DNA of 64,000 bases. It comes from Chrysomallon squamiferum. Its lineage: Eukaryota > Animalia > Mollusca. The DNA lies in contig CM022665.1 of assembly GCA_012295275.1 (NCBI GenBank), positions 25,792,001 through 25,856,000 of the forward strand. Reading direction: 5' to 3'. Both the position numbers and the translations under genes were made by a program. The notes under the pieces were generated by a model that had not been told where the DNA came from, ran no database searches, and was given only the letters and a program-made list of their open reading frames with translations. How positions within the stretch are numbered: position 1 is the first letter of the stretch; the number at the start of each line of letters is the position of its first letter. Shown here one piece after another: positions 916 through 53,718 of the stretch.

Positions 916-3900
916 CTGAAAAAACAAACAAATGAATACTCAAAAAACAACCCTACCAAGAAAAATAACAAAACCTAATAATAATAATTACAACAAAAAT
1001 AACAATAAAGTAATAATAATAAAAAAAAAAAAAAAAAATATTAAAATGTTCCATAAAGAAAAACAACTTAAATAAAATAAATGGCATTCAACATTAAACT
1101 TTCCAGCAACTGATTAAAAAAAAAATAATAATAAAAATAAAAATCGTAACACATCTCAAGTAAAATTCTTTCTAAATAATATCAAATTATGTTATAGTGT
1201 ACACTTTATTTTTTAGCAGTGACAAATTGATTAAAAAGACATAAAAATATATGTACTTTATTTTTTTGCAAATACATGAAATTTATACTATACACTTACT
1301 TTTCCTGTTTGGGGGTTGTAGTAAAAGTTGGACCAGTTTGGATCAGTTTGCATAACACGAAACTTGAACAATTCTATTAGACAGAGTTTCAGAATAGATT
1401 CACCAAGCTGAAATGAGATATATATAAAACATAATTAAGAACAATATTAATAATTCAGTACAAAATATTAGTTTTTAATAACAATCAGAGTAATTCAGAA
1501 AAAGATCTACAGAAAGAAAAATTTACAATTAAAAATAATCTTAGAAATATGGTTTATATTCTAATTGTGAAATGTAAATAAATAAATAATTAAATAAATA
1601 AAAAAATAGAAAATTAAATAAATAATAAAAAATAATAATCTCTGTTCAAATCATCTAACAGTTTTCTTTTTAAAAATATTTTATTTTATTATTTTTTATA
1701 CATTAAATATTCTAAAATTAATTTTTAAATATATAACCACATTATGTTAAAAATTAAGACAGTAACTGTAAAATCAGCCATCAATACTGTCTTTACGACT
1801 TATCAATGTGACTGTTATTAATGTATTTATAATACATTTACTGTTATGTATTTAGTTCTTACTGCTGTCCAGAAGTAAAAAGTAATTATAAACTACATCA
1901 ACAGTAGGTCATAACCTCCCTCCACTACCCATAAAAATAAAAAATAAAAAATAAATAAATAAATAATATAAAACAAAATAAAAATAATATACATTTCAAG
2001 GATAATAACAACATTCTGCAAGCTCCATGTTTTCTGTGAATCCATCTTATTATGTCAAAGAGTGACACATCATACTTCTTACAGCTGATAAGGATTTTGT
2101 CTACTTAAGGAGGAAAATGTCACTTGTTTCTGTGAATGTACAAGAAGTGGCACTTCTTTCAATTTTAAACATTTGTGAATAGAATGTATATACAATGTAG
2201 CTATCTAAGAGTTATAAACTGTAGGTATATACTGAACATGGCTTTGAAAAAAATATAAAAAATAAAATAACACATTCTCAAAACAGTGATTATCTCGGTA
2301 GACAGAAAACATGCATCAGATCACTGTTTATCTTGATACGAAGCCAGTAAGAGTATCACCAGTAAAAAGATAACCAAACTTTTAGATTGTTTTGACAGCT
2401 TTAAATTATGTCCTATTTACACTGTCAAGTATCATTATTTTATGATGATAAATGGGTGTAACAGTCATATAAAAAATAACGTTATGCAAGCTTTTTAATG
2501 CATGAGTTTTTTTCATCATTTAACTTTTAATGAAAGTCAGATCTCTTTGGTTTGGTTTCTTACAATCAGACATGCTTTGTAAATATGTTACATCAATAAT
2601 GACAGTAGTATATCTTTCTCTTTTAAGATTCTTACTCTATAGGCAGATTCAGGACATAATATCCCATGCAAATCATTGTATGGTTCACAAATTAGTGAAG
2701 CAAAATTTTTGTGAACTAACAATCCATTATGTGATACAAACTGAACATGGAAAACAGCTAATGTGTCTGGGTATGTAATATGTGTAATATGTGTGTCTCT
2801 GTGTGTGGAAATAAAAAACAAATTCAGTTTTAATGACATTTCTTTTTTACTGAACAATGTAGAATGATGTGCCAGTGATACTGGCCCATAAACATCTGTG
2901 AGAATTGAGCAACTAATATATACATACAAGCTTGCATAAAACAATAAATAAATAAATACAGACAAACCCCAAAATGTTCTACAGTATCCCATATTTTAAA
3001 GTCTAAGAAGTCTATCATAAGTGGTTAAGTAGATAATCAATATCAGTTTTGCTTATAATAATAAATTTCAAAACGTTTCATAAAGTAACTGTAATCATCA
3101 ACAATTATTTGTTTCAACTTTTTCTTTTCTTTTTATAATTTTAAACTCTCACTCTGTAATTATTTTATTGGTTCAGTATCTATTTCTTATTAAAATAAGA
3201 AGATATTACTTTCATATAACCTGCTCATTATTTCTACTATTTTCACTGACATGCCTTATTTCACAAAATATCACAATTATATACAAGGCTTTTTTTATGA
3301 AAAAAACCCACAAAACACAAACTAATAAAAATAACAACATCAAAATACACAACAATGTATCTAACAAATATTAATCTCATTTTCTTTCCAAGAGACTGGT
3401 CCTTTATTTACATGATGCATTCATGAATCTTTTTATCACCAGATTTACTGATATTACCTTTCATCAGCAAACTAACTAAAGCATTAAAATAACTACAGGC
3501 ATATCACTTACTGACTTTGTGGATTTTAAAATAAAAAATGTTTTGTATTCAGTACACCCTTTTAATATTAGTTGGCTTTTAAACAATAATATAATTACAC
3601 AGTCTTTCTATATAAAATCAGTTATAAATATTGGAATCCTTAGTAATCATATAAACAAATATAGATTAGATGAACAAATTGTAAAATTGAACATTCAGAT
3701 GTACATACACAAAATATGCTTTTCTTGTTAATATTAATATTTTCATCGGATTAATTTTAAAAACCAAAATATTGTGTTCACTTTCATATTAAAATGTATA
3801 CAAAAGTATTTCACTAGGTCCAGTCGCATTAAATTTGGGTAATACTTAATGCATTTTCCTCTGGAATAACTTTGGAAGAACTTAATACATGTCCATCTGG

Positions 3901-4971
3901 AATATTTGCAATGCTCTGAACAGTCATTTCTCCATGTCTAAAACAGCAACCAAATTTTCTGAACAAAAACTTTTTAAAAGTATCTCTGAAGTCTTTTTTC
4001 AAGAATGCATACACTATAGGATTCACCATAGAGTTACTCATACTTAGACACAGAGCAAAGCTTTTCAAGACTTCAACCAAATCCCATGGAACTGATTTGA
4101 TGTATTTCAGTGCACTGCACGCCATATATGGCATCCAAAAGAGTACGAAAAGTAACAAAACCAGAGACATCACTTTTGCTGATGAGATCTCCTTTTCAGT
4201 CTTTTTCTTGGCCATAGCAGAGGCATACACACATGTAGCTTGAATTTGTCTATGGTGTCTGCGAGCTGTGTAGAAAATCCTAATATACATCAGGCTTGTA
4301 AAAGTAAGACAGCCTAGAACTTGTACATGCACAGCAATATAAATATATTCTTTAGACAGAACAGTGTACAAATCGCATGGACTGTTTTCTTTCCAAGTAT
4401 TCCATCCAGCTAGAGGAAGAAAACTCAAGACTGTAGAAAATACCCACAGAAAAGTAAGTGCACGCTTGGCCCTACCAGGGGTCATCAAAGCTAAGTATTT
4501 CAGTGGGTAGATGACAGCAAGATAACGATCAAAAGACATCAGCAACAGATTCAGCAAAGACGATCCACATGAATAAATTGCCATACCACATCGAAAGAGA
4601 CAGGCATACTTGTTCTCATCTAACTTTCCAATTTTCAGATAAAACAGTGAGTACAACGGTATTGTCACAAGGCCAACAAGCAGATCAGCAACAGCCAAAC
4701 TAGCAATATAGGAATTTGTGATTGTCTGCAGTTTTGGTTCAGAGCACACTGCAACTAAAACTAAAAGGTTTCCACCAATAATAAAAGGTGCCAAGCAAAT
4801 ATCAATGCCTGCAAATATTCTTCCAAATAAAATCAAATCTAGTTTTGCATTTTTTTCTGAAACTGACTGAACTGTTGTGAAGTTGTTAATAAATTCAAAA
4901 ACTGTTGTATTTTCTGCCATTTAGAACACTAAATATGACAAATTTATTTTTTTATCAAATAAATAAATAGA

Positions 4972-25457: not shown

Positions 25458-26614
25458 CTAATGACCTGAAGCTTGACGGGCACGTTTGTACTCCTCCTGC
25501 TGAATGCGTTGTTGAATCATGTACTGTGCTTTAGTTATGTTAGATGGTGTTCCAGTGATAGATACTATGCGGTTTCGGGTTCCTGGGGTGTATACACCTT
25601 TTTTCGAGATTTGAATATTGGTACCAGTATACTGCTGTATTTCCACAATGCCCTTTCCACCAGGGCCCAGTATAGCTCCAACGATACTCTCTGCTACTTC
25701 CAGATCCTGTTTTGTAGTTCCAGATGTCTTGTCTTCTGTAGGGCTATACATTCCTGTACCAAGACCAAATGAATTTTGGTTAACACTGATATTTGGAGAC
25801 CTATCACCAGCAGGGAAACCTTGGGCAGTGCTGGGGTAAGTGATAGCACTAGAGAAGGAATCATTTAACATGGGACTACTTCCGTATCTTTCCTGTTGTA
25901 CACTAGGGGAAGAGCTTCCAAACAGACTAGAGTTGGCACCTGTAGAACCAGAGCTACCAAGTCCGGATGAACCACTGCCAACAGGACCAAACAAACTCGT
26001 GGCACTAGCTGAATTATTGCTAGTGTTGAGGTATGGACTGGCTTGGGAAACATTTCCCGAAGCTGACGATGTGCTTGTCATCAGTGGTGTTGATCCTATG
26101 GCTGGGGTACCCAGATTCAGATTACCTATACCAGTGTTGCCACTGATATTCTGTGGTACATTCCCAAGATTATTGACACCAAGACCTAATCCCATTCCAA
26201 GTATTCCATAGTTAGCTAATGTATTCATAGCCTGACTTATTTCCTCAGTTGCCTGGTCTGTAAATCCACTACCTCTTAAAGTCACTTTCAAGTTGTCGAT
26301 GTTGGCGCCTGACATTGCACCCGGTGCTCCTGCATTGAAATTCATTCCAGTTGCTAAGTTGGTGTTTAATGTATTTCCATTAAATCCGAAACCGAAACCT
26401 CCACCACCAGCAAAATTATTGTTGCCAATCGCCATTTCTTGACTGCGATTCTGAATAAAAGTGCTGTTAGCGAAAGGTGAACCTGTGGGATTGGCACTGG
26501 CTACAGGACCCGTATAATCTGCATAGCTGATATTTGGACAACTTCCACTCTGTGGATCTTCAACAATCTTCTGAAGTATCATATCTATAGCCTTTGTGTT
26601 GGAATCAAAATCAC
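25458..26614 (-). CDS. Nova: Nova coding exon 5 (last helix of KH2, low-complexity linker, KH3, stop)
   Basis: ttttgcag acceptor, 1157 nt in phase 1 ending RQASGH*. Confidence 0.96.
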
Positions 26615-29600
26615 CTGCAAAATACAGAAGTTACAAAGCACACCATTAACAGATTTTTATATTAAAAATTACAGGTTTCCAAACACTGTTTTCAGTTCTT
26701 GCAAAAAGAACCAGCAAATAAATAATACTAATCTATTTTAATACTTTTTTTTTTTTTTTAGCTCATATTGGCCCGTATTTTTCAATATCCATTAAATAAT
26801 TAGTATTAACTAAATACTCAAATTTCCAAAAAAAATCATTTATATAACCTTATTGACTGCAATTTCTGTTTTTACTACTGATTTTTAAGTCCTTCAATTT
26901 TTAAAAATATTCATGCCCAGCTTTAATGGAATATGACTATATCATAAAGAACTGTTTTTCTTATGTTATTCATTAAAAAAAATAATAATAATAGGAACTT
27001 TAAATACAAGTGTAACTGACATGCTACTTTCCACAACCACCCTTGATGAATGAAATGATAACCCTTTTATGAATATCTGACCAGATGGAATGATGATATC
27101 AATCCAGATAATATGATAATGGTGATATGAAATGAAATAAAGTGAAAATGAACGAGATGATATGGGAAAGTTTAATTTATATAATCAGAGACCTGGACAA
27201 ATAGTTAACTTATGAAAATGTGATCTATTTTAACAGTTCTGAATTGTGTTTTAATGATAACTATAATGATTACTTATTATCTCCCTTGATAATAAACATT
27301 CTGCAATATTAGGATCAAAGAAATATATAATTTCGAGACTCCAAAAAAATAAAATGCATTTTTAAAAATATACAGCTAATTCACAAGAATAATTAACAAA
27401 ATTTACTTCATAATTAGTCACCTTTACAACTAAAGATCTTGTAAAAAATGCAATTAAAACATGAATTACAGTGATTAAAACTGGTCTAGAATTTTGTAAT
27501 TAAAATGCCAAAATCATTATCTGCTCAAAGTAATTTTAAATCAAAATATTTTAAATTAATTTTAAATTAAATTTTTACGTACCTTGAGGGTAAACAATAT
27601 GTCTTAGTGAAATGAGAATGAAAATGACATGATACCTGTGATCTCACCTGCTACAGTCACACATCTCTCAGGTAAATTGGTTTCTTTTGACTTTTGTGAA
27701 ATCTGTACATACGCTCCACTTTCTTCTTTTATTTGTTTGATGAAGTTTCCGGCTTTTCCTATGATCATCCCAGCTGTACTGTTTGGTACAAGGATTTTTA
27801 CCTGCAAGAACAAATCATATTTTTTTAAGAAAATAAAAATATTTGAGATGATAATAATTACAATTAATTTTATTTTTTTATTTTTTTTATTTTTAATAAA
27901 TGGTATATCAAATATCTTAATTGAAGTTTAGAAATCATGTTATAGACAGACATCCAAATGAAATTAAAAAATTGCTTACGACCAATACTGTTTTCTTTAG
28001 AAACTATAAACTGCTACAGAAATACACTGCAAGTAAGGTTGGGCATTTTAAACTTGACATGAGATGATTATGTTATCTAATTATGGTCTGCAAAGAAGTA
28101 TTAAACTTAAAGCATATGAAATATTCAGCAGCAGCCAGCTCAAAATTTTGAAATGTGTATTAAATTCTATCTAAACATACCTGCCGATGCCGTTCAAATG
28201 TTGACTTTGTTTCATCCATTTTGGGATTAGGGTCAGGTTTTTCTCTAATTTTTTCCATGACAAAATTATGAACTTGGCGAACTGCTTCGACGGGACCCAT
28301 AATGAGACAGACGCGTTCAGTTGTTCCTGAAAAATAATTAAATAAAAAGACGTAACATTATTCTTACAGTTGGCACTGACTGGAAATAATGTAGCAACAA
28401 CAACAACAAAAAACACTGTTGCATCAAAAATGTCTTTTTGTTAAGTACTGCAGTTTATTACTTCTGACATTTTATCTGCATTCCTACAGACGGAAAGAGA
28501 TTCTCAAAGACTGACCCCCCCAAAAAAACAAATGTAATATAAATACTTGTAACACAAAGGCATTAATCAAATCTGAGGTAAAATGGATAAATAATGAATA
28601 AAACTGTTTCTCTAAACTTAGTATGTAATTAATATTTTTAAACTCATTTTAATTTCTTAAATATATTTTAAAAATTTAAATTTTGTTAAGATTTACAACT
28701 GAAAAATATACTCTTGAAAAACAGAACAAAATATATCCTGCAAGATTTGATACATTATATAGTGCTGCATACTCCTTTTTTTAACCTGTTATTAAATACT
28801 GTGTTTTTGTTTTTTATGCAGCCAAATTGTCATTGTATTTAGTCTACATTTGTTACTGATAAATATATTAACAATTTCATTATGTGTAAAAGTAATATTT
28901 GTTTATCATTTTATGTATCTGCATGTTATCTTTTTCAGCCATGTTAATTATTTTAAGTCAACCAGTGTATAATACAGTTGAAAACTAATTTGTTTTTATA
29001 TATATCTGGCTTATAATTAATAGAAAACAGTTTGCTTCTATTATACTTTCTTATATACTGACAGATGACCACTTAAATGCTTATGTTACCATAAAACTGG
29101 AAACATTTATTTGGATTAGATGAAAATACTTTGTACCAAAATAAAAACTCCCATGTCATATACTACTTTATAGACTTTTCTGCTGTTACCAATAAATAGA
29201 ATATATTGATTAATAATGACAAAATAATTAATATGAATTTTAAAATGTCATTTTATGGGAAGTAGCATCTTGCAGCTATTTTCATCATCTACAGATTCGG
29301 TTCATTTTATGGAAATCAATGCTGATTTATTTTCACACTATTTTACTAGCTGCATAAACATTACTGAAATTACTAATTGTATAATCTCTGTCATTGAAAT
29401 GAATTAATTCACAGGCTAATTAAGCCTAGCAAGTCTTTTACACTTTCTTTATTTCACTTTTGTACTAATAAAAGCAAACTTTTTTGCTGAATATTCTTAA
29501 ACCAACAATAATACTAACCCAATCCCAGTAAAATATTAAGATTTAGCATAATGTTTTATTTGTTTTCCTGTTGTTGTTTTTATTTTAGTGAAATAAATAC

Positions 29601-32600
29601 TTGATCATTTTTAAAACATACATGTGTATGTTAATGAAACAGTATTAGTCACCCAAAATTACCTGGATAAAAATCATTTGCTTTTGACATCTTAACTCGG
29701 GCGCCTGCATCTTTCTGAACTTGTGCAATGGTTTCCCCACCTTTTCCAATAATGGCACCGGCAGCTATACTGGGCACAAGAATTTTTAAGTGAATGTTTT
29801 CACCTGAAAGTATAAATATATATATGTAGTTATAATCAAAGATCAGGTAATGTACCTTACATATTTTTATTTTTTATATATAAACCTTTGCATAATTATT
29901 ACAAACACACAAACTGCTGCAAGGAATAGTTTATTTCACTCATATAGGTATTAAGTACTAGACATCAGCATGCATATTGTGTACACCATTAAGGACATTG
30001 ATCAGAATGGAAAGTCCACAGCTAAATTATCTGCCCATAATACATACTGGCTATGTAGATAAAATAATTAAAGTTGTATTATGCAGATAAATTCACCCAA
30101 GTCCATTGTCTCCTTCAATATGAATGATCATCTGCCAACTTACTAACCTCTGCTATGTTCCATGCTTTATGTGCCAACTATCTAGCAACATCTGCATTTT
30201 CTAATGATTTCATCCATATGGCAACATTGTCAATACAAACTAGAAAAAATCTTTGCTTCTGGATACTTCTCTGCCTCTAAGCAGAGGAGGAAGTGTGTAT
30301 CTACACTACAAAATGTCATTGAAAGGTCAAGAGTTTTCTGTTAAATACACACAACAGATCTACACGCATCTACGCACAAACACAGGTTCATATATAAACA
30401 TGTTCACTCACATAATACATATATTCATAACATACAAATATAGAAGTCAAAACGTACAAATTGTGTATTACTTCTGTGGAAATTACCAAGTGTCATCATA
30501 TATTCATTGATTTATGCTTTAGGCCATTTTCAGAATATCAGATAGAAAGTTTATAGTGGGAGTCACTTTCTCCACGCACCCTAATTTCCATCACTCAAAA
30601 ATAATTAAATGCATTAAAGAAGACCACAAACTATGATAAATCAACCTCTGACTGGTATATTAGAATCAACGCTGTGTACGTTGCAACTAATAATTAATTA
30701 TATGTACACGTGTAACTATATACTGAAGTTGACAATAGATTGTGTTTGTGTTCCCTTGGGCAACAATATTTTTAAGAATAAATGAACCTAATGAAGGGTA
30801 AATGTACGTAACAATACTTAAGCACTGTTGTGGAATAGCTTCCCTGCTACTTTCAGACTATTTGGTAACCATAATAAAAACACTTCAAAAAGGATATCTG
30901 TAACCACAAAGCCCATTGTTTGTTCTCTCAAACAAAATGTTTTAATTTCCTTTTATTTCCACACATACATTTCCTCACATATTTTTTTTTTTTTCCCCAT
31001 GTTCTTTTTAAAATTATGTCATTTTTTCCCTGCCTAATGTGTTAAGGTTAACACTACAAAAACAAAACATTGATTTTTAAAAAAATTATATGACAATAAC
31101 AGGACCAGAGGGCAGAAAGAGTGAAGGTGATGTAAGGTCAATGTTTCTGAGACCAATTGGAATGTTTGACTAGTTACAATTTGCAAAGTGTTACTCACCA
31201 TTAACAAACATATCATTGTTTTCATTTAACCTTTATTATTACAGAAAATACCCTGCATTATAGAAGATAAAAGATGGAACAGACAGTGAGGTCAACTGAC
31301 CCAGGCCTTTGAATGTTGCTGGTCTATAGCAAACATGTACATTCTGTAACAGCTGGCAAACAGTCTAATGTAATATTTATTGTACATACATACATACATA
31401 CGTACATACACACATATATATTTAATAGCAACATGATGCATAACCGTCTTACACCACAAAAGAGAATATTACCTGGAACGAAAATTAAAAAAGGTCTCAC
31501 TGTCTTACCTGGAAATGTTAAAGGAAACATATATACATCTGCAAATACATGTACAAGTGGGCTGTAGCAGTCTGGAGGTGTAAATGCATATGCAGATGTT
31601 GGTCCACTTCAGAGAGTGGCACTGTGCCAGATGTACATAATTACTGCTGTCAGACCCACACCAACAAGGCACACTGGGCCACAAGTTTATGTAAAATGTA
31701 CATCAATCAATGGAATAACAACACGATCAATAACGTCAAACCCAAACAATATGCTCTTTCTATCTTGTTCAACTATCAGAAATCAAACTTTTTATATTTT
31801 TTTATATGGTATACATACAAGACACATACACAAAATATTTATCAGAATAAATACATCATAAAGTAATATTTGCTATTATCTCTTCTCAAAGGACTTGGAT
31901 ATATTGTCTGGTTTCTTGTTTCTGTATCCTATGTGGTATTTTTAAGTTTTTTTTCTGTGAAGTCATACAAGTATGCAAGCAAGTGCATTCACGGAATGTG
32001 CATATGACTATCAAAGTGCATGCAGCATGTGTACGAGTGCTGTTTTTCGCCAAAGACAGTAAACCATCATCAAAATTAACAGAATGATTATCATGGCTTT
32101 TTGAAATATTCAGCTTGCAAACATTGTCTGATGCAAGAGATTGTAGATCATGTTCAATACATTATGTTTCTACCATAAGGTTACAATTATCTAAAAACAG
32201 GATATTTACAGATCTGATAAAAGCAATGAAGTATAAAGTTATTTTATTTACACAAAACCCACGATCTTTTGTTGTAGTGTGGAACAATGGAAATTTAAAT
32301 TATACTAACTTAGAAAATTACTTTAAAAAAAAAAAAAAAAAAAGTGATTTTAAACATGAAAATTTATACCTTTCTGATGTTTGCATCAAACAAATGTCAA
32401 AATGCAAAGCATTAAGTGCTGTTTTATCACATTAAATGACACTTAACATGCACCTCAGCCTTAGAGCTCCAAGTAAGATCTAGTTGATTCCCCTCTTTTT
32501 TAAAAATTACTTAGGTGTGTTATTAATAACTTCTGTTATTTCTTAGGAAGAGCATGTATGAGATGAGCCCTTAGAACATCCTTAGTACATTTTCTGATTT

Positions 32601-51000: not shown

Positions 51001-53718
51001 AAACAAAATGGTAGAAAAAAATCATAATCAACATACTGTATGTTAATATATATTAACTGCCATACTTTATACAAAGTGAACAGTAATAATATGCAATGAA
51101 TTATGCATGGGATTTTGCATTTTGCATTTGTATGAAACTAAAGCCAAGAATGCCTAGCTAAAGAAATTCATGACAGCAGTGCCATTTACAGAGTTATTTG
51201 TGTTGTCTATTCTCAGATTAACACCGTTCATTTTATTGTAATGTGCAGATCTAATAACCAAACCCTCTACTTCAAGCAAAAGTAATCTATAATTCTATTC
51301 AGCATGTAACCTCAACAACTGGACAATTACACCCTCTGTAATTAGTAAACTATGCTTTAATGCAAGTTTGCAGTATCCTTATAAAGGTTGTACAGTCAAA
51401 ACGCATGTGTGCATATGATTGTGCAATAATTTTATATATATATAGATATAGATATAGCTAGTTTTTAAAGTATTCAGTAATACTTTCTGAAATATTAAAA
51501 TAATGAAATCCCTAGTAATCTTTTTGTACCATAAAATTTAACAAAAAAGAATTAACCATGGTAACATCTTAATGAAATTAAATGTGCAGCATCCTCTTTT
51601 ATAGCATTTTAGTGTCATACATTCAATTGTAATTTTCATTTTCAAGCCAAAGATTTTTATTGTACATTTCCATCGTAAGTGTTTTCACTATTGGTGGCTT
51701 AGTAATTAAATTCAGTTCATATTTTGAATCTTAGTTACTTGTAAACGAAAAGTTTTTTTAATTTCAGATTTCCAAATATATTTAAAGGTATGAAATCTGA
51801 AATGTTCAAGTTTGGTATGTTTTGTCAAAATTTTAAATTTTGTACATTATTTTTCATATATGATATTTCATAGTTACATTTCAAATGAAATATTTCACTC
51901 AAATTATTTTCATGAGTGCAGTGTAATATCTTTGAATGTTCACATTACGTCTATTTTTGTATTTGTGACAGTTCAGGTTCTCTACTGCATGACTAATCCT
52001 TTGTGAAGTATATATCTAAACCACCACCACCAAGTATATAGGATTACATCCTATTCAATGTTGCCCATACTGACAGTCTAAATAGTCCTAAAATGTAAAT
52101 TCATATATTCAGTATCTTTTAAGAACCTGAAATACATGTTTAAACACACACAAAAAAAATAAAAAAATAATAATAATTCTTTAAATTATAAAATTGATAT
52201 AAACAATTCATTTTTGAGGATTAAATATGAAAAGTATGTACAACTGTAAAAAAAAAAATTATACTATTCTGTAGATTAAGAATAAAATACAGCATAACAA
52301 ATATAAAAAGGTAACTAAGAATTAGTGTCAGTTAAGTAAATAAATAAAAAGTAAATTAATGTCATGTGATGAGAAGACCATATTTCAAACAGCACAGCAG
52401 TATGGTCTGTGTGTATTACACGATATCAAGAATGTGCTACTTTTAAAAACAAATTACCACATATTGATTCTTTAGAAACGGATACATTGTAATGCTTGAA
52501 TTTTGTTTATTTCCATCTCCAAATGAAGTTAAAAATTGCATCATATAACTGCAATACACCTGTAAAATGTTGCACAGCTGTGCGATCTGTTTGCATAGTT
52601 TTCTCTTCTAGGCGAACTATTTTTGGCTATCCAAGAACTGAATTATGGCAGCCAAGCAATGTGTGATACCAAGTTGGGTAAAGAATGGCCATGGATACCG
52701 ATATGTCCCTGGTAAAAATATGGACTTGTATCTACAATTTGACACGTGGTCAAGTTATGGAAATTCGCTGAAATCAACAAATGTATTGCACGAAGTGGGT
52801 GGAGCACCGGTGCATGTCCACGCAATACACAGGCAAACAGCCGTACACGTTTCCAAACGCCCTTACAAAACCGAACAAGAAAATTTAAAATACACAAAAC
52901 AAACAATACCTCTCCAAATAGGAATAAATGATGGGTCGGGACTGTCTACCATGTTTCTCCGAATGGTACTGTGGCAAATATTTAGGTCGACCAACGTCAT
53001 AATTTCGGAGCTGTTAACTATTCGTCCTTCACTCGCAAGTGCTGGCAACTGACTGAGCATATGACCGTCGAGTTCTCCTTCAACCCCGACCAGATCTACC
53101 CATACATGGGTCAAAGAACAGTCTAATGTGCTAACGTGAATTGGGGTACATAGCATATATGTACTGCGAATAAACGGCTAGCGAAATAGAAATGAGAATT
53201 TTGACACATGTATGAACATACATGCCCGTACACGAAACGCAAGGACAGTCGATGACCGCTGTGGAAAAAAGTTAAATTAAGTGCGTAGAACTAATTATTA
53301 TTTAATCATTAAAAGCAAGGCGATTACAAAAATGGCTTAGAAAAATGCATTAACAAATACTTTACATTTCTTTCCATGATTGTGCGGGGAATTCCACAAA
53401 AAACACATCGAACAAAATTTCGTCGACTCGATTTCTGCCGCCATATTGGCTGAAATGAGTCGCTGGTTCGTTCCAATAAATGATCTTTTTTACAAAAATT
53501 ATATAAGCTTCATTCTAACCTCCACCCTGGTTAGATCGCTTGGTGACCCCGTTATCTGTTTCTCCATCCAAGGGCCTTTTTCTCGAGTCCAAGGTGTCCA
53601 TTTCCGACCCGTTCATCCCGTCGTAGTTCACTGCCATTATGGAGTTGGGCCTGTTCTCGTGGGGTAACGTACCACACGGCGCATGACTCACGAGACTTGT
53701 CGAGGCGCATCCTAGCAT
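25458..53718 (-). CDS. Nova: RNA-binding protein Nova (Nova/pasilla family), 598 aa, three KH domains; 5 coding exons
   Basis: Exons 53520-53718, 29663-29803, 28181-28326, 27648-27801 and 25458-26614 join in phase (1797 nt). Motifs: DSRKRPL NLS, KH1 [11 protein letters not shown]2 [36 protein letters not shown]3 [28 protein letters not shown]. Confidence 0.96.
27046..27165 (-). promoter_or_regulatory. Intronic YCAY cluster (16 motifs), candidate Nova-binding element
   Basis: 16 RTGR tetramers on the plus strand (YCAY on the pre-mRNA) counted in 120 nt. Confidence 0.7.
27607..27641 (-). promoter_or_regulatory. YCAY cluster (6 motifs) just downstream of the Nova exon-4 donor
   Basis: Pre-mRNA sequence UCACagguaUCAUgUCAUuuUCAUucUCAUuUCAC. 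Confidence 0.7.
27648..27801 (-). CDS. Nova: Nova coding exon 4 (most of KH2)
   Basis: [37 protein letters not shown]...ERCVTVA; donor CAG|GTGAGA. Confidence 0.96.
28181..28326 (-). CDS. Nova: Nova coding exon 3 (end of KH1 and linker)
   Basis: [36 protein letters not shown]...ERHRQ. Confidence 0.96.
29663..29803 (-). CDS. Nova: Nova coding exon 2 (KH1, first part)
   Basis: [46 protein letters not shown]. Confidence 0.96.
37480..37690 (-). mobile_element. Decayed Meta/MESC-like SINE copy
   Basis: GAAAAGGAAA..CTACCACTAATGGGTTACTCTTTATTAGCAGCAAAAGATCTTTT..GATAGGA..ATGGCCTTT..TGATCCTGTGA resembles the reverse strand of a gastropod SINE core, recalled from memory and not searched. Confidence 0.5.
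40153..40814. repeat. 65-bp dispersed direct duplication (40153-40217 and 40750-40814)
   Basis: ATGTCCAKAAGGCTTTAAAATTGTTTTTCCAGTACCTACATTTCAWAATTTTCAAYTGGAGGTAA occurs twice, 597 bp apart. Confidence 0.85.
47390..47585 (+). mobile_element. Decayed Meta/MESC-like SINE copy
   Basis: TGGTTATCAAAGGCCATGGTA...ATCCTTGTTGCTAA...GGCAGCTGGTTTCCT...GAGGTATCATTAAAT; reverse-complement similarity to the copy at 37480. Confidence 0.5.
52910..53156 (-). CDS. Nova: Candidate alternative first coding exon of Nova, lacking the NLS (…[14 protein letters not shown])
   Basis: Open frame in a CpG-rich region ending at the donor GAG|GTATTG in phase 1, compatible with exon 2; the start Met is uncertain. Confidence 0.5.
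53437..53447. promoter_or_regulatory. YY1-type motif (GCCGCCATATT) at the start of Nova intron 1
   Basis: Matches CCGCCATNTT inside the CpG-rich 52500-53900 region. Confidence 0.4.
53520..53718 (-). CDS. Nova: Nova coding exon 1 (contains the [11 protein letters not shown])
   Basis: Donor GAG|GTTAGA in phase 1; which ATG is used (53718 or a downstream Met) is uncertain. Confidence 0.85.

What the first reader, a model, noticed from the sequence alone, without database searches (positions are those of the whole stretch)
27583..27648. Three competing 5' splice sites with a YCAY cluster between them: candidate Nova autoregulatory switch inside KH2
Seen: after Nova exon 4 the pre-mRNA has donor 1 CAG|GUGAGA (27648), donor 2 CAG|GUAUCA (27636, +12 nt in frame, inserting 4 residues before the last KH2 helix) and a strong donor 3 AAG|GUACGU (27583, +65 nt). 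The donor-3 extension contains UAA at 27606-27604. Six YCAY motifs lie in 35 nt (27641-27607) between donors 1 and 3. Known: Nova KH domains bind YCAY clusters, and vertebrate NOVA1 autoregulates a cassette exon between KH1 and KH2. Inference: here Nova controls donor choice or retention of a different intron. The alternative product would end ...[18 protein letters not shown], with a broken KH2 and no KH3. The stop is only ~21 nt from the donor-3 junction, so it may escape EJC-type NMD and give a truncated protein.
Basis: partly seen in the sequence, partly recalled or inferred. Interest (0 to 1): 0.85.

Follow-up and report, generated by a model that had tools for sequence, protein, structure and literature searches.

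The report
Tandem donors under Nova's own motifs
In a snail's gene for the splicing regulator Nova, two splice sites 12 bases apart are both used and are shared with abalone, adding or leaving out four amino acids in an RNA-binding domain; a run of Nova's own recognition motif lies across the second site, so Nova likely tunes its own splicing here, while the third site first proposed found no RNA support.

Summary
The gene is a gastropod Nova (97% identical to Gigantopelta aegis). RNA contigs show donor 1 in 4 of 4 runs and donor 2 (+12 nt) in 1 of 4, at roughly 28% there. Donor 3 was joined in 0 of 4, and it plus unspliced RNA is at most about 5% in the deepest run. Donor 2 is old: G. aegis and three Haliotis species have annotated isoforms with and without the 4-residue insert, which only lengthens the KH2 beta3-alpha3 loop in AlphaFold models. 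The six YCAYs straddle donor 2, and one abalone-type read-through peptide suggests the cluster is conserved. Best reading (0.5): Nova binds its own last intron and shifts choice toward donor 1. Binding and regulation are untested, 0 of 20 more distant introns show the motif enrichment, and oysters and limpets have similar extensions of other lengths. A new variant of known Nova autoregulation, not a truncation switch.

The parts
53520..53637 (-). Nova first coding exon 1a (an in-frame upstream ATG also lies at 53718)
   Evidence: tblastn of G. aegis isoform X1 residues 1-40; donor GAG|GTTAGA
52910..53000 (-). Alternative first coding exon 1b
   Evidence: 31 of 31 residues identical to the N-terminus of G. 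aegis isoform X3
29663..29803 (-). Exon 2 (first part of KH1)
28181..28326 (-). Exon 3 (end of KH1, linker)
   Evidence: exon 3 letters are the loose end at 27805 in all 4 runs
27648..27801 (-). Exon 4, KH2 up to the end of beta3; ends at donor 1 (major)
   Evidence: junction to exon 5 in 4 of 4 RNA runs; Pfam KH_1 positions 3-53 of 66
27636..27647 (-). 12-nt in-frame extension to donor 2; adds four residues (EITG) to the KH2 beta3-alpha3 loop
   Evidence: junction contig in run X1, depth 62.8; same insert in G. aegis, ESTG in Haliotis; models
27607..27641 (-). YCAY cluster A: 6 motifs, at +7 to +41 of donor 1 and -6 to +29 of donor 2
   Evidence: conservation inferred from peptide P0214
27604..27606 (-). 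In-frame TAA met by any read-through past donor 2
27577..27585 (-). Donor-3-like site AAG|GTACGT; no use seen
   Evidence: no junction in 4 runs; predicted to lie in a stem
27516..27599 (-). Imperfect hairpin predicted to cover donor 3
   Evidence: z -2.6, 3 of 200 shuffles; boundaries chosen after seeing the fold
27046..27165 (-). YCAY cluster B: 16 motifs in 120 nt in mid-intron 4, the densest in the window on either strand
   Evidence: maximum 11 per 150 nt in 100 shuffled windows; only a weak 30-nt period-5 repeat inside it
26615..27647 (-). Intron 4 (1033 nt), the last intron in the coding sequence
26745..26759 (-). Genomic run of 15 A on the sense strand; the intron RNA contigs end just upstream of it
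   Evidence: contig lengths
25458..26614 (-). Exon 5 coding part: KH2 alpha3, linker, KH3, stop

Best explanation
Nova exon 4 ends at two in-frame donors 12 nt apart that are both used and are shared with abalone, and Nova likely binds the YCAY cluster lying across the second donor, which would block that donor and favour the first, so that Nova would set how much of itself carries a four-residue insert in the KH2 beta3-alpha3 loop. Shown: use of donors 1 and 2, the insert in other species, the motif positions and enrichment. Predicted: the insert leaves the KH2 fold intact. Inferred: binding by Nova; direction of the effect (one YCAY between the donors and one at +4 to +7 of donor 2, inside its U1 pairing site, while the whole cluster is downstream-intronic for donor 1); cluster B acting as a second landing site that helps remove the intron; any functional effect of the insert. 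Donor 3 is most likely a silent look-alike.
For: Junction contigs for donor 1 (depth 150.6) and donor 2 (62.8) in X1. Isoform pairs with and without the insert in G. aegis (3 of 4 cluster members with) and in Haliotis rufescens, cracherodii and asinina (5 of 15 listed members with). Clusters A and B are the two densest YCAY clusters on either strand of 64 kb and both are on the sense strand of this 1-kb intron; TCAT is the most enriched of 256 tetramers against introns 1-3 (20 vs 6.7, Poisson p 2e-5). P0214, identical to Haliotis over KH2 plus ESTG, has a read-through tail that could hold 10 YCAY in 18 codons, against at most 5 in the other 50 tails and 1 of 646 null peptides reaching 10. Published: Nova silences from exonic or splice-site positions and enhances from downstream (PMC3165201, passages); TCATTT between competing donors repressed the intron-proximal one in a reporter (PMC1877881, section 8 part 1); NOVA1's own YCAYs run from exon 4 into the downstream intron (PMC1877881, passages); KH2 is needed for Ciona Nova activity (PMC12445529, passages).
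Against: No binding or perturbation data. 0 of 20 orthologous introns from more distant animals show YCAY enrichment at p < 0.05. Oysters (+5 aa) and limpets (+6 aa) have their own extensions at this junction, and the oyster read-through tails can hold only 0-2 YCAY in 14 codons, so extensions arise here without the cluster. Mollusc Nova annotations also show short extensions at the exon 2/3 and 3/4 junctions. The cluster-A segment alone is not beyond its own shuffles (p 0.13), and YATY is enriched as much as YCAY in the intron. Donor 2 was seen in the run with the highest Nova depth, not the lowest. Cluster conservation rests on one unnamed peptide and on the maximum possible, not observed, motif count. 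In the reporter study 26 of 31 tested elements had the same effect, so it is not specific to Nova.
Confidence: 0.5

Rival explanations
1. Unregulated tandem donor: a tolerated loop insertion made at a fixed ratio; the U/CA-rich tract is a general splicing helper read by other proteins (TIA-1- or PTB-like, recalled examples) or compositional noise.
For: Extensions of +4, +5 and +6 residues and a -3 form occur at this junction in different mollusc lineages (22 of 213 proteins); the insert falls in a surface loop, the usual place for tolerated tandem sites (PMC2279118, abstract); no motif enrichment in 20 other introns.
Against: Same +12 offset and the pattern GE-x-TG-x-x-SF kept between this snail and abalone; two window-leading clusters of exactly this protein's motif in one intron.
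Confidence: 0.26
2. Negative feedback on intron removal: Nova on clusters A and B holds intron 4 in, or ends the RNA within it, giving a message for a 227-aa KH1-only protein or for decay; donor 2 is a side matter.
For: Intron-4 RNA in 4 of 4 runs, continuous from exon 4 in X1, while 53 nt of intron 3 have no cover in any. Cluster B is far from both splice sites, so it has no obvious part in donor choice. Word shares (0.90, 0.66, 0.65, 0.63) fit intron RNA that stops near the A-run (expected 0.92, 0.70, 0.68, 0.64) better than RNA running into exon 5 (0.99, 0.78, 0.76, 0.72).
Against: Intron-to-exon depth is flat (4.3, 6.1, 5.3, 4.9%, my arithmetic) over a fourfold range of exon depth. Last introns next to a genomic A-run are commonly covered through oligo-dT capture of unspliced RNA (recalled). 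No AATAAA in the intron. No truncated isoform among the 120 best of 756 longer hits, the cluster members listed, or 20 short hits.
Confidence: 0.18
3. One reading: Nova switches splicing to or from donor 3, whose product escapes junction-dependent decay and makes a truncated protein.
For: Donor 3 is consensus-like (7 of 9; U1 pairing like the true donors of exons 2 and 3); all six YCAY lie between it and donor 1; the stop is 21 nt before it. Contigs drop rare forms, and 4 runs of one study do not cover all tissues.
Against: No junction in 4 runs and a ceiling of about 5% in X1; comparable sites at 0.68 per kb; predicted to be buried in a stem; no GT at the same offset in the abalone-type peptide.
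Confidence: 0.06

Closest known systems
Vertebrate NOVA1 exon 4 autoregulation (Dredge et al. 2005; paper not held, seen through passages of PMC1877881 and PMC5343574)
   Same: Nova's own YCAY motifs straddle a variable 5' splice site in its own pre-mRNA; both outcomes keep the frame.
   Different: There a cassette exon (between KH1 and KH2, recalled), with regulation shown by experiment. Here a 12-nt donor shift inside KH2, in an intron that human NOVA1 and NOVA2 lack, their KH2 and KH3 lying in the terminal exon (PMC11836289 and PMC9543825, passages). Not the same event by descent.
Nova/Pasilla RNA splicing map (PMC3165201, passages)
   Same: Cluster A sits in the enhancing position for donor 1 and in the silencing position for donor 2.
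   Different: The map was drawn for cassette exons; the paired second site described there is near the branch point, whereas cluster B is in mid-intron, about 430 nt from the acceptor.
In-frame tandem alternative splice sites (PMC2279118, abstract)
   Same: Small in-frame insertion in a surface loop of a folded domain.
   Different: That study covers 3, 6 and 9 nt in human genes and finds most such sites selected against; this one is 12 nt, kept across distant snail lineages and overlapped by a regulator's motif cluster.
Human NOVA2 last-exon truncating variants (PMC9543825, passages)
   Same: A product lacking KH3 that is predicted to escape decay, as for the donor-3 or read-through form.
   Different: Those are mutations, mostly after KH2; here the truncated form would also lose KH2 alpha3 and was not shown to exist as a spliced message.

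Membership tests
Nova/Pasilla protein family | Three KH domains with Nova-type sequence | tested here: met
   Pfam KH_1 in exons 2, 4 and 5; G. aegis isoform X1, 97% identical to the window protein, hits Nova-1 KH1/2 (2ann) and Nova KH3 structures first
In-frame tandem alternative donors | Both nearby donors joined to the same acceptor in RNA | tested here: met
   X1 contigs for donors 1 and 2
In-frame tandem alternative donors | Insert in a loop, fold kept | tested here: met
   Predicted only: beta3 180-187 and alpha3 192-209 with insert, 180-186 and 189-205 without
Nova autoregulatory splicing (NOVA1 exon 4 type) | YCAY cluster at a variable splice site of the Nova pre-mRNA | tested here: met
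Nova autoregulatory splicing (NOVA1 exon 4 type) | Cluster conserved in relatives | tested here: inconclusive
   Likely in abalone from one peptide; absent in 20 more distant introns; no gastropod intron DNA obtained
Nova autoregulatory splicing (NOVA1 exon 4 type) | The regulated unit is a cassette exon | tested here: not met
   It is a donor shift; no contig branch at cluster B or elsewhere in the laid part of the intron
Nova autoregulatory splicing (NOVA1 exon 4 type) | Nova binds the cluster | not testable with these tools
   needs CLIP or gel shift
Nova autoregulatory splicing (NOVA1 exon 4 type) | Splicing changes with Nova level | tested here: inconclusive
   4 runs of contigs, tissues unknown, donor 2 visible in 1; contigs cannot show absence
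Splicing-coupled decay (poison) autoregulation | A spliced isoform with a premature stop is made | tested here: not met
   No donor-3 junction in 4 runs; only unspliced intron RNA at 4-6%
Splicing-coupled decay (poison) autoregulation | Stop lies more than 50-55 nt before a downstream junction (rule recalled) | tested here: not met
   21 nt for donor 3; intron 4 is the last coding intron; introns in the 3' UTR were not tested

The most novel reading that the evidence does not exclude
Snails independently evolved Nova autoregulation at an intron that vertebrates lack: Nova bound to two YCAY clusters drives its own last intron to the productive donor and away from the insert-bearing, stop-bearing and unspliced outcomes, a positive feedback loop that locks in a Nova-high cell state and tunes KH2 by a four-residue loop switch.
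Probability: 0.15. Interest if true: 0.75.

Novelty: new variant of a known kind. Interest (0 to 1): 0.5.

Why it matters
Nova autoregulation is established for a vertebrate cassette exon. A motif-covered, conserved donor pair inside KH2 of a snail Nova would be a separate solution to the same feedback problem, in an intron vertebrates lack, and gives a small, directly testable minigene for asking whether mollusc Nova follows the same position rules. It also points to a KH2 loop that several mollusc lineages vary by 4-6 residues. The insert isoform itself is already in automatic annotation (G. aegis, Haliotis); my searches of the held library found no paper describing it or the motif clusters, but most subscription papers are not held.

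Tried and rejected
No genome is held for this window, so there was no genome-wide control for donors or clusters. RNA was laid on 26800-27858 only, so the last 185 nt of intron 4 and the acceptor were not covered; junctions were read from loose-end letters. A cryptic exon at cluster B (acceptor-like site at 27192, donor-like sites at 27082 and 27021) was rejected for lack of any contig branch. RNA structure as the control on donors 1 and 2 was rejected (z 0.08). Cluster B as a simple tandem repeat was rejected. Absence of donor 2 in X2-X4 was not counted as tissue specificity, because assemblers remove minor short bubbles (recalled behaviour). The gap in intron 3 cover is only a weak control against DNA in the libraries. 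A scan of prokaryotic genome contigs gave 2 unrelated loci; the metagenome scan gave 75 loci but no close gastropod intron. A search of short proteins for truncated isoforms gave 20 hits, none informative, and its query favoured exon 5. Papers not held: Dredge 2005, a PNAS paper on Nova network evolution recalled as Irimia 2011, Teplova 2011. No supplements were read.

Full report
Gene and observation. The minus strand carries a five-exon Nova gene: exon 1a 53637-53520 (alternative 1b 53000-52910), exon 2 29803-29663, exon 3 28326-28181, exon 4 27801-27648, exon 5 from 26614 to the stop at 25458. The protein is 97% identical to Gigantopelta aegis Nova and 76% to Haliotis, with three KH domains. 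Donor 1 gives 598 aa, donor 2 602 aa, and donor 3 or any read-through 227 aa. Intron 4 is the last coding intron and splits KH2 between beta3 and alpha3.

Is it more than chance? Donor 3 is not remarkable alone: 7 of 9 consensus matches (27 of 1396 GT sites in intron 1 do as well) and a U1 pairing energy met 0.68 times per kb. These two are the densest clusters on either strand of the window. TCAT is the top tetramer of 256 against introns 1-3; among 16 Y-N-N-Y classes only YCAY and YATY are enriched. Densities are 29 per kb in intron 4 and 8-19 per kb in introns 1-3.

RNA evidence. Five runs hold the stretch, four RNA runs from one study. I laid their contigs on 26800-27858. In X1 three paths leave exon 4: a contig whose loose end is exon 5 joined at donor 1 (depth 150.6), one joined at donor 2 (62.8), and a 902-nt unspliced contig (12.4) that crosses donor 3 without a branch. 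The path shared by donor 2 and everything longer has depth 70. By my arithmetic that is about 68% donor 1, 28% donor 2 and 3-5% for unspliced RNA and donor 3 together; the tool warns that contig depth is a poor measure of level, so these are rough. X2-X4 show donor 1 only, which proves nothing about donor 2 because contigs drop minor forms. Intron RNA is present in all four runs at 4-6% of exon depth, in X2-X4 only in the 3' part, and by their lengths the contigs end just upstream of a genomic run of 15 A. Word shares fit RNA that stops there better than RNA that runs into exon 5; this is indirect, and oligo-dT capture of unspliced RNA explains it as well as a real end does.

Conservation. Of 213 proteins examined, 8 carry a 4-residue insert at this junction, 6 a 5-residue, 7 a 6-residue, 1 lacks 3 residues, 187 have none and 4 lacked the motif. 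The 4-residue form is EITG in G. aegis and ESTG in three Haliotis species, each also annotated without it; for the abalone and oyster clusters only 15 of 20 and 15 of 124 members were listed. Limpets have +6 and oysters +5; read-through fragments show that the oyster insert also comes from the 5' end of the intron. None was seen in the Aplysia, Babylonia, Octopus, chiton, Dreissena or scallop isoforms listed. No gastropod intron DNA could be fetched, so I used read-through peptides of exon-4 fragments (120 listed, 7 dropped as lacking the motif or reading into exon 5). P0214, identical to Haliotis over KH2 and the insert, has a tail that keeps Ser-Phe at the same two codons as the window and could hold 10 YCAY in 18 codons, against at most 5 for the other 50 tails of that length; 1 of 646 null peptides reaches 10, and under 1% reach its expected count. 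The query held the window's tail, which raises P0214's rank, but its assignment rests on the exact match. Its tail has no early stop and no GT at the donor-3 offset. Against deep conservation, 0 of 20 genomic introns from other animals (20 of 75 loci: those with an intron here, near-duplicates dropped; 8 partial) show YCAY enrichment at p < 0.05.

Protein effect. In AlphaFold models of the two G. aegis isoforms the insert lengthens the beta3-alpha3 connection, with low confidence at residues 189-191, and leaves the other KH2 elements in place. The read-through protein would lose alpha3, which contacts the KH2 core in NOVA1 (PMC11836289, passages), and all of KH3, so it would likely act as KH1 alone (inference).

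Mechanism. The motifs lie at +7 to +41 of donor 1 and at -6 to +29 of donor 2. By the published position rules (PMC3165201, passages) and a reporter test in which TCATTT between competing donors repressed the intron-proximal one (PMC1877881, section 8 part 1 of 2), bound Nova would hinder U1 at donor 2, and at donor 3, and favour donor 1. The geometry resembles NOVA1 exon 4, whose YCAYs run across the donor into the intron (PMC1877881, passages). I put this at 0.5. An unregulated, tolerated tandem donor is the main rival (0.26), since other molluscs make similar inserts without the cluster and short extensions recur at other Nova junctions. Control of intron removal is next (0.18). The donor-3 switch gets 0.06; the site is also predicted to be buried in a hairpin.

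Known and new. It works like NOVA1 autoregulation but is not that event: it is a donor shift, in an intron that human NOVA genes lack, and binding is untested. The insert isoform is already in automatic annotation. Searches of the held library (three returned no paper) found no description of the event or of the clusters. Verdict: real, conserved two-donor event with a plausible autoregulatory element; new variant of a known kind; interest 0.5.

Noticed in passing
   Followed up: partly
window 53000-52910 (-): Alternative first coding exon of Nova, identical in translation to G. aegis isoform X3; it lacks the RKRP basic motif of exon 1a, recalling the two first exons with and without a nuclear signal in Ciona Nova (PMC12445529).
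   Followed up: partly
proteins P0121, P0123, P0124, P0129, P0133; P0001, P0004, P0019, P0180 and others: Mollusc Nova annotations carry short in-frame extensions at the exon 2/3 junction (Haliotis, +5 aa, in the KH1 variable-loop region) and the exon 3/4 junction (+1 to +5 aa, most starting with Val).
   Followed up: no
proteins P0229, P0233, P0234: Three unnamed read-through tails share the start GENGK and then diverge, which would fit a conserved second donor at +9 nt in another lineage.
   Followed up: no
window 27599-27516 (-): Imperfect AT-rich hairpin covering donor 3 (z -2.6).
   Followed up: partly
window 3832-4920 (-): Intronless 363-aa rhodopsin-family GPCR gene (Pfam 7tm_1, E 9e-48).
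   Followed up: no
window 18562-16438 (-): Coding exons of another gene downstream of Nova; their translations look like the N-terminal part of a COQ8/ADCK3 kinase (recalled; two exons gave no Pfam match).
   Followed up: no
window 43034-42840 and 22163-22010 (-): Weaker YCAY groups (8 in 100 nt each) in Nova intron 1 and downstream of the gene; the second includes a short direct repeat.
   Followed up: no
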